Positions 8,628 to 14,422 of a stretch of 64,000 bases of DNA are shown here, piece after piece. Numbering within the stretch: the stretch's first letter is position 1; every line of letters begins with the position of its first letter. The DNA is from the human T2T-CHM13v2.0 reference genome, Homo sapiens. Location: assembly GCF_009914755.1 (NCBI RefSeq), contig NC_060940.1. One strand, 5' to 3'. The position numbers and the translations under genes are program-made. Under the pieces are notes generated by a model. The model searched no databases, was not told the DNA's origin, and saw only the letters and a program-made list of their open reading frames with translations.

Positions 8628-14422
<5,795 letters not shown>

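What the first reader, a model, noticed from the sequence alone, without database searches (positions are those of the whole stretch)
9147..9167. One missing base is the only lesion in an otherwise pristine 11-exon caspase
Seen: ATG-CCCCC-AGA shifts the frame to M-P-P-E-G-S-stop (TGA 9165-67, 105-aa product, NMD-prone). The other frame continues PRGQLRQPQQLVRELSGCRALRGCPRVFLL, homologous to exon 7. All 10 introns are GT-AG, no other stop or indel exists, and a poly(A) signal is retained. Inference: very recent, probably human-lineage, gene loss. An intact or revertant allele is conceivable next to a C5 run.
Basis: partly seen in the sequence, partly recalled or inferred. Interest (0 to 1): 0.7.

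Follow-up and report, generated by a model that had tools for sequence, protein, structure and literature searches.

The report
Known human caspase-16 pseudogene frameshift
This is the human caspase-16 pseudogene, switched off by one missing base in exon 3 while chimpanzees keep the gene whole; the loss is real and recent, but it was published in 2025.

Summary
ATG (9147-9149), C5 (9150-9154) and TGA (9165-9167) are as described. An 11-exon model has 10 of 10 GT-AG introns. It gives a 105-aa product as it stands. With one unknown base placed after 9149 it gives 470 codons with no further stop, the His/Cys catalytic pair intact, and AATAAA at 14554.

Eckhart et al. 2025 (J Mol Evol, PMC12198278) report the same 1-nt deletion in exon 3, the same 105-aa product and 11 exons, and an intact gene in chimpanzee, gorilla and orangutan.

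- The missing base is a G in front of the C5 run, which is equally long in chimpanzee. A G>A change (V100M) lies two bases upstream.
- "Pristine" is slightly overstated. Human W245, and R127 in this assembly, occur in 0 of 102 mammalian homologues.
- Amino-acid change on the human branch is not faster than on the chimpanzee branch, 4 against 4.
- A 2021 paper claims a working CASP16P protein. This is unresolved.

Whether the deletion is fixed in humans, and its state in archaic hominins, could not be tested.

The parts
8628..8702 (+). Exon 1, coding part (start codon ATG 8628-8630, codons 1-25)
   Evidence: Matches the exon 1 of the chimpanzee gene printed in Suppl. Fig. S1. RefSeq NR_132322.1 lacks this exon.
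8797..8937 (+). Exon 2 (codons 26-72), start of the caspase-like prodomain; paralogue of exon 6
   Evidence: AG/GT; 20/50 identical to exon 6, E 1e-06.
9066..9260 (+). Exon 3, 195 nt (196 in chimpanzee); paralogue of exon 7; carries the frameshift
   Evidence: Suppl. Fig. S7.
9147..9154 (+). Lesion site: ATG then CCCCC. One G is missing between 9149 and 9150 relative to chimpanzee, and 9147 is A where chimpanzee has G (V100M).
   Evidence: window. (chimpanzee/GRCh38 alignment printed in the paper's supplement). V at 100 in 25 of 26 orthologues, A at 101 in 25 of 26.
9165..9167 (+). Premature TGA, codon 106; it ends 93 nt upstream of the exon 3/4 junction
9227..9229 (+). Codon 127, AGA (Arg) in this assembly. 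GRCh38 and chimpanzee have AAA (Lys). Lys is found in 101 of 102 homologues (the other is a gap).
9356..9444 (+). Exon 4 (ancestral entry phase 1). The last codon is GAG here and AAG (E167K) in GRCh38.
10281..10391 (+). Exon 5, end of the prodomain; paralogue of exon 11
   Evidence: 15/35 identical, E 1e-04.
10531..10698 (+). Exon 6, start of the catalytic caspase domain. Contains the human-derived TGG (W245) at 10651-10653.
   Evidence: W occurs in 0 of 102 homologues.
11872..12094 (+). Exon 7. Catalytic His290 codon at 11959-11961 and Cys332 codon at 12085-12087 (QACRG). First in-frame ATG after the break (M288) at 11953-11955.
   Evidence: Pfam Peptidase_C14, 33.6 bits against a cut-off of 21.4; caspase-2 p18, E 3.3e-08..
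12417..12533 (+). Exon 8 (inter-subunit linker)
12938..13012 (+). Exon 9 (second linker exon)
13550..13653 (+). Exon 10 (small subunit)
   Evidence: Pfam Peptidase_C14 at E 0.0031, below the cut-off for this 34-aa piece alone.
14309..14560 (+). Exon 11. Ancestral stop TGA at 14420-14422. AATAAA at 14554-14559.

Best explanation
The stretch is exon 3 of CASP16P, the human orthologue of mammalian caspase-16, lying next to ZNF213 on 16p13.3. The ancestral gene encodes a 470-residue protease. An N-terminal prodomain, itself a catalytically dead duplicate of the caspase domain (exons 2-5), is followed by a catalytic caspase domain (exons 6-11). On the human lineage one G was lost at codon 101, which shifts the frame and gives TGA at codon 106. 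The main transcript can therefore encode only a 105-residue fragment of the dead prodomain. It should also be a target of nonsense-mediated decay, because the stop lies 93 nt upstream of the next exon junction and eight more junctions follow (inferred, not measured). Everything else is still intact: splice sites, the catalytic His290 and Cys332, the natural stop and the poly(A) signal. That fits a loss after the human-chimpanzee split. The site, the frames, the exon structure and the comparison with orthologues are shown here. Decay of the mRNA, absence of protein and fixation in humans are inferred.
For: Sequence and frames. Ten of 10 introns are GT-AG. The product as it stands is 105 aa. Read through, the frame has 470 codons with no other stop, and AATAAA is at 14554.

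Caspase identity: exon 7 alone passes Pfam Peptidase_C14 (33.6 bits against 21.4) and matches the caspase-2 p18 subunit across the catalytic His and the QACRG motif.

Orthology: the best hit is chimpanzee 'uncharacterized protein CASP16', 470 aa, 99% identical over exon 7. The whole human read-through is 460/470 identical to it, without gaps.

The lesion is absent elsewhere. V-A-P-R-G-Q is intact in chimpanzee, gorilla and 24 further mammals, and A101 is present in 100 of 102 homologues of 400 aa or more. Chimpanzee genomic DNA printed in Suppl. Figs S1 and S7 shows GTGGCCCCC.

The same deletion is in GRCh38 (paper) and in T2T-CHM13 (this window), so it is not an assembly error.

Internal duplication: a profile comparison of the N-half against the C-half of 28 orthologues gives probability 99.95%, E 2.1e-37, 173 columns.

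No rescue route was found. Skipping exon 3 gives 83 aa. The only ATG-started ORF that includes the catalytic residues begins at M288 and has 183 aa, lacking the first part of the large subunit.

Published: Eckhart et al. 2025, PMC12198278, and the review PMC12292325 (passages).
Against: Weigand et al. 2021 (PMC7895437; passages only) report that an HA-tagged synthetic 'ORF of CASP16P', when overexpressed, lowers PKA RIIbeta in adrenocortical cell lines, and they call CASP16P protein-coding. The main text does not say which ORF was used, and I could not open their supplement.

Amino-acid change on the human branch is not faster than on the chimpanzee branch (4 against 4 with gorilla as outgroup). 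Relaxed constraint is therefore not visible as a rate difference, though the counts are too small to be informative.

Only two human haplotypes were seen, so fixation is not shown.

The protein database holds gene models, which favour intact genes, so '0 of 102 with the lesion' is a biased count.
Confidence: 0.93

Rival explanations
1. Polymorphic pseudogene, as with CASP12. The deletion is common but not fixed, and an intact ancestral allele (or a frame-restoring second change near the C5 run) still segregates in some human populations or was present in archaic hominins.
For: Nothing direct. The rest of the gene is intact. The two assemblies differ at 3 coding positions (9228, 9442, 14326), so the locus is variable. 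The precedent is CASP12, listed among polymorphic disruptions in PMC2864566 (passages). No paper found addresses the question (searches; term look-ups).
Against: Both independent human assemblies, GRCh38 and T2T-CHM13, carry the deletion. RefSeq and the 2025 paper treat it as the human state. The C5 run is not where the base was lost, so there is no particular reason to expect recurrent slippage back.
Confidence: 0.07
2. CASP16P still yields a working protein in some human tissues. Candidates are the 183-aa ORF from M288, a non-AUG start in the 408-codon stop-free frame, or an unannotated isoform. This protein would cleave PKA RIIbeta in adrenocortical cells.
For: Weigand et al. 2021. CASP16P mRNA is raised in PRKACA-mutant adenomas, and the overexpressed HA-tagged ORF lowers RIIbeta (passages). 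The catalytic His and Cys and all downstream exons are intact. NR_132322.1 holds a 408-codon stop-free frame through the catalytic domain.
Against: That frame has no ATG before codon 226 (M288), two residues before the catalytic His. A product starting there lacks exon 6 and the first 27 codons of exon 7, which belong to the large subunit. The construct carried an artificial N-terminal tag and start, so it shows that the sequence can be translated, not that the native mRNA is. Skipping exon 3 does not restore the frame (paper). Eckhart et al. conclude that no active protease is made.
Confidence: 0.05
3. Sequencing or assembly artefact in a homopolymer run.
For: The break lies next to a run of five C.
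Against: The run has five C in chimpanzee too. The missing base is a G. The deletion is present in two independently built assemblies.
Confidence: 0.005

Closest known systems
Human CASP16P as described by Eckhart, Sachslehner, Steinbinder and Fischer 2025 (J Mol Evol 93:395; PMC12198278)
   Same: It is the same locus and the same 1-nt deletion in exon 3. It gives the same 105-aa product, 11 exons, an intact chimpanzee, gorilla and orangutan gene, and a prodomain derived from a duplicated caspase domain.
   Different: Nothing in substance. Added here: the T2T-CHM13 haplotype (the paper used GRCh38); polarisation of the ten human-chimpanzee protein differences; rare missense states W245 and R127 (K167 in GRCh38); pN/pS of about 0.5-0.6; a relative-rate test; and the link to the conflicting 2021 functional claim, which the paper does not cite.
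Human CASP12 pseudogene
   Same: A caspase lost on the human lineage while chimpanzee keeps it. The 2025 paper makes this comparison.
   Different: The CASP12 null allele is known to be polymorphic and to have spread under positive selection (passages of PMC2864566). For CASP16P neither polymorphism nor selection has been examined in anything I could find.
Independent CASP16 losses in mouse, guinea pig, platypus and cetaceans
   Same: The same gene, pseudogenised repeatedly.
   Different: Different lesions in different lineages. I did not examine those sequences.
Caspase-8 / cFLIP(L) heterodimer (an active caspase paired with a dead caspase-like partner)
   Same: This is the model offered by the paper for how the ancestral two-domain protein may work: one live and one dead caspase fold paired.
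   Different: In caspase-16 the two folds are in one chain. The pairing is a published model only, not tested here or there.

Membership tests
Caspase family (Peptidase C14, Pfam PF00656) | Match to the caspase domain profile above the curated cut-off | tested here: met
   Window exon 7 alone scores 33.6 bits against a cut-off of 21.4. The chimpanzee orthologue scores 121.9 bits over residues 229-441. PDB caspase-2, -7, -8 and -3 chains match with E down to 1.2e-16.
Caspase family (Peptidase C14, Pfam PF00656) | Catalytic His and the Cys of the QACRG motif | tested here: met
   The codons are present in the window at 11959-11961 (His290) and 12085-12087 (Cys332). Both residues are found in 102 of 102 homologues. 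They lie downstream of the frameshift, so the main ORF does not translate them.
Caspase family (Peptidase C14, Pfam PF00656) | Uninterrupted coding sequence giving a complete large and small subunit | tested here: not met
   Frameshift at codon 101 and stop at codon 106. This makes it a pseudogene of the family, not a working member.
Caspase-16 orthologue group | Closest to CASP16 of other mammals and lying beside ZNF213 | tested here: met
   The top hit is chimpanzee CASP16, 460/470 identical. ZNF213 ends at 7417 in the hub's table and the CASP16P start codon is at 8628. The paper uses ZNF213 synteny as its criterion.
Caspase-16 orthologue group | Prodomain that is a duplicate of the caspase domain without catalytic residues | tested here: met
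   Profile comparison of the N-half against the C-half gives probability 99.95%, E 2.1e-37. Window exon pairs: 3/7, 2/6 and 5/11. Exon 4 against exon 10 gave no BLASTP alignment. Pfam itself finds only the C-terminal domain.
Human-specific unitary pseudogene | Disabling lesion absent from the closest relatives | tested here: met
   Chimpanzee genomic sequence printed in Suppl. Figs S1 and S7. The gorilla protein model is intact at the site. For orangutan there is only the paper's statement and figure legend.
Human-specific unitary pseudogene | Lesion fixed in the species | not testable with these tools
   Only two haplotypes were seen: T2T-CHM13 in this window and GRCh38 in the paper's supplement.
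Human-specific unitary pseudogene | No intact second copy elsewhere in the genome | not tested
   The rest of the human genome was not searched.

The most novel reading that the evidence does not exclude
The loss may be incomplete or very young. An intact ancestral CASP16 allele might still segregate in some human populations, or archaic hominins might have carried it. Caspase-16 would then be a second CASP12-like case, in which a cell-death or inflammation protease beside the MEFV locus was lost recently, perhaps under selection. Carriers of the intact allele would make a two-domain caspase that most people lack.
Probability: 0.07. Interest if true: 0.55.

Novelty: already known. Interest (0 to 1): 0.2.

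Why it matters
Caspase-16 is a mammalian protease of unknown function, related to caspase-14 and to the inflammatory caspases, and it lies close to MEFV. Its loss is one of the few protein-coding differences between humans and chimpanzees. Because mouse has lost it too, its function must be studied in rat, rabbit or livestock. The finding adds nothing to what was published in 2025.

Three loose ends remain useful:
- Is the deletion fixed in humans?
- When did it arise?
- How can a reported protease activity of 'CASP16P' in adrenal tumours be squared with a transcript that has no usable start for the catalytic domain?

Tried and rejected
- C-run slippage as the cause: rejected. Chimpanzee also has five C, and the lost base is the G before them.
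- Gene conversion from exon 7 as the source of V100M. The change makes codon 100 equal to the paralogous ATG of exon 7. It would not explain the deletion, and I did not pursue it.
- Faster protein change on the human branch: not seen, 4 human-specific against 4 chimpanzee-specific changes over 457 sites with gorilla as outgroup.
- Rescue by skipping exon 3: rejected, it gives 83 aa.
- Pfam on the prodomain exons alone: no caspase match. Pfam on full-length chimpanzee CASP16 finds one domain only.
- BLASTP of exon 4 against exon 10: no alignment.
- Literature on alleles, population frequency or archaic genomes for CASP16P: none found. Searches were (13 papers hold the word CASP16P). Term look-ups in the 2025 paper, its supplement and the review found no mention of Neanderthal, Denisovan, polymorphism or allele. 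The unitary-pseudogene survey PMC2864566 mentions only CASP12.

Full report
**What is in the sequence**

One search lists the 33-codon stop-to-stop frame 9066..9167, ending ...CALVALMPPEGS. In a second frame it lists 8942..9268, which runs ...APRGQLRQPQQLVRELSGCRALRGCPRVFLLLSSGPG. Both halves of this exon resemble the exon at 11872-12094. The part before the break matches in the first frame (19/27 identical, E 7e-11). The part after it matches in the shifted frame (15/28 identical, E 1e-08). So one exon changes frame in the middle.

**Gene model**

RefSeq's NR_132322.1 starts inside exon 2. Using the chimpanzee gene printed in the supplement of Eckhart et al. 2025, I located the start codon at 8628 and the exon 1 donor at 8702. 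The 11 exons are 8628-8702, 8797-8937, 9066-9260, 9356-9444, 10281-10391, 10531-10698, 11872-12094, 12417-12533, 12938-13012, 13550-13653 and 14309-14560.

- All 10 introns begin with GT and end with AG.
- As it stands, the first stop is codon 106, giving a 105-aa product.
- With one unknown base after 9149, read as X, the frame stays open for 470 codons to the TGA at 14420-14422, with no other stop.
- AATAAA lies at 14554-14559.
- The premature stop is 93 nt upstream of the exon 3/4 junction. By the usual 50-55-nt rule the mRNA should be subject to nonsense-mediated decay. This is an inference and nothing here measures it.

**What the gene is**

Exon 7 alone passes the Pfam caspase-domain cut-off (33.6 bits against 21.4). 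It aligns with the caspase-2 p18 subunit across the catalytic His and the QACRG motif. A search with exon 7 found 180 proteins at E 1e-10 or better among 200 candidates. The best is chimpanzee 'uncharacterized protein CASP16', 470 aa, 99% identical. The human read-through is 460/470 identical to it, without gaps. His290 and Cys332 are present in the window (11959-11961 and 12085-12087) and in 102 of 102 homologues of 400 aa or more. That set includes several isoforms per species and four unnamed records, so its members are not independent.

I cut an alignment of 28 orthologues into residues 1-204 and 205-470. A profile comparison of the two halves gives probability 99.95%, E 2.1e-37, 173 columns and 44% identity. 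The prodomain is therefore a duplicate of the caspase domain. The human lesion, at V100/A101, pairs with M288/A289, just before the catalytic His. Exon pairs within the window agree for 2/6, 3/7 and 5/11, but not for 4/10 by BLASTP. Pfam sees only the C-terminal domain.

**It is already published**

Eckhart, Sachslehner, Steinbinder and Fischer (J Mol Evol 2025, PMC12198278) cover the same ground. I read the abstract, Results, Discussion and supplement parts 1, 9 and 10. They report:
- a single-nucleotide deletion in exon 3 of human CASP16P;
- termination at the sixth triplet after it, giving a 105-aa product;
- 11 exons;
- more than 98% nucleotide identity with an intact chimpanzee gene;
- absence of the deletion from gorilla and orangutan;
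- transcripts in duodenum, small intestine and spleen;
- failure of exon-3 skipping to restore the frame;
- M288 in exon 7 as the only in-frame start for the catalytic domain.

A review by the same group repeats this (PMC12292325, passages only). My calculations reproduce the last two points: exon-3 skipping gives 83 aa, and the only ATG-started ORF with the catalytic residues has 183 aa.

**Refinements**

(1) *The lost base.* In the printed alignment, chimpanzee has GTGGCCCCC where GRCh38 has ATG-CCCCC, and the window is identical to GRCh38 here. The C5 run is therefore unchanged. A G was lost, and two bases upstream a G became A (V100M). V is found at this position in 92 of 102 homologues and M in 7. 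A101 is found in 100 of 102. Two changes within three bases suggest one complex mutational event, but that is only an inference.

(2) *Polarity of the differences.* Using 26 orthologues chosen from the 120 listed, for near-full length and taxonomic spread, the ten human-chimpanzee differences sort as follows:
- Human-derived: M100, the frameshifted codon 101, R127 and W245.
- Chimpanzee-derived: positions 65, 172, 265, 422 and 438.
- Ambiguous: position 13 (human T, as in macaques; M in chimpanzee and gorilla). It is a CpG site.

W245 and R127 each occur in 0 of 102 homologues, and K127 is invariant in the 28-sequence alignment. So 'pristine' is slightly too strong.

(3) *Differences between the two assemblies.* I compared the window by eye with the GRCh38 rows of Suppl. 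Fig. S7, over all coding exons (and the passage). The two human assemblies differ at three coding positions:
- 9228: AGA here, AAA in GRCh38 and chimpanzee.
- 9442: GAG here and in chimpanzee, AAG (E167K) in GRCh38. K occurs in 0 of 102 homologues.
- 14326: TGT here and in chimpanzee, TGC in GRCh38.

Each haplotype thus carries its own derived missense change at a conserved residue, as expected of a gene no longer under selection. Both carry the deletion, V100M and W245.

(4) *Substitution rates.* Counted by eye against the chimpanzee sequence, T2T-CHM13 has 9 non-synonymous and 5 synonymous differences, and GRCh38 has 9 and 6. With 1040.7 non-synonymous and 366.3 synonymous sites, pN/pS is about 0.63 and 0.53. 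With gorilla as outgroup, human-specific and chimpanzee-specific amino-acid changes number 4 and 4 over 457 sites. There is no sign of acceleration on the human branch. The numbers are too small to date the loss.

**A conflict in the literature**

Weigand et al. 2021 (Sci Adv, PMC7895437, passages only) found CASP16P mRNA raised in PRKACA-mutant adrenal adenomas. They also report that an overexpressed, N-terminally HA-tagged synthetic 'ORF of CASP16P' lowers PKA RIIbeta, and they conclude that the gene is protein-coding. Eckhart et al. do not cite this work.

The RefSeq transcript holds a 408-codon stop-free frame through the whole catalytic domain, but its first ATG is codon 226, which is M288. 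A construct given its own start could therefore yield a caspase-like protein even though the native mRNA has no start for it. That would reconcile the two papers.

**What could not be done**

- No human population data, archaic genomes or primate genomic DNA are reachable with these tools.
- Part 11 of the paper's supplement (intron 10 and the last rows of Fig. S7) was not read. Exons 10 and 11 were compared with Suppl. Fig. S1 instead.
- I found no paper on CASP16P alleles, frequency or archaic state (searches; look-ups).

**Verdict**

The remaining interest lies in whether the deletion is fixed, how old it is, and the unexplained 2021 functional claim.

Noticed in passing
window 9228, 9442, 14326: T2T-CHM13 and GRCh38 (as printed in the paper's Suppl. 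Fig. S7) differ at three coding positions of CASP16P. Two are missense changes at residues conserved across mammals: K127R in CHM13 and E167K in GRCh38.
   Followed up: partly
window 9147 versus 11953-11955: The human G>A beside the deletion turns codon 100 into ATG, the same codon as the paralogous position (M288) in exon 7. This may be coincidence or a small conversion tract between the duplicated exons. It would not explain the deletion.
   Followed up: no
window 58528-58600 (+): A tRNA-Arg (anticodon CCT) is found by ARAGORN and by Rfam at 57.6 bits against a cut-off of 29, but it has no row in the hub's RefSeq gene table. The other 15 ARAGORN calls all match rows of the table.
   Followed up: partly
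window 8752-8777 (intron 1 of CASP16P): A perfect (CCCAG)5.2 microsatellite. The human-chimpanzee alignment in the paper's supplement shows a 13-base length difference around it.
   Followed up: no
window 11127-11723 (intron 6 of CASP16P): Two Alu-like units in tandem (period 295, 82% matches), followed by a 21-base A run.
   Followed up: no
window about 11800-12250; protein P0102: The protein database holds a 144-aa prokaryote-style ORF call identical to intron 6, exon 7 and intron 7 of this locus. It stands for 14 member sequences on 162 contigs with no named source. This is presumably human DNA within other assemblies. I did not trace it.
   Followed up: no
literature (PMC7895437 versus PMC12198278): A 2021 paper assigns a proteolytic function in adrenal Cushing adenomas to 'caspase 16' from CASP16P. 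The 2025 paper showing that the gene cannot encode an active protease does not cite it.
   Followed up: partly
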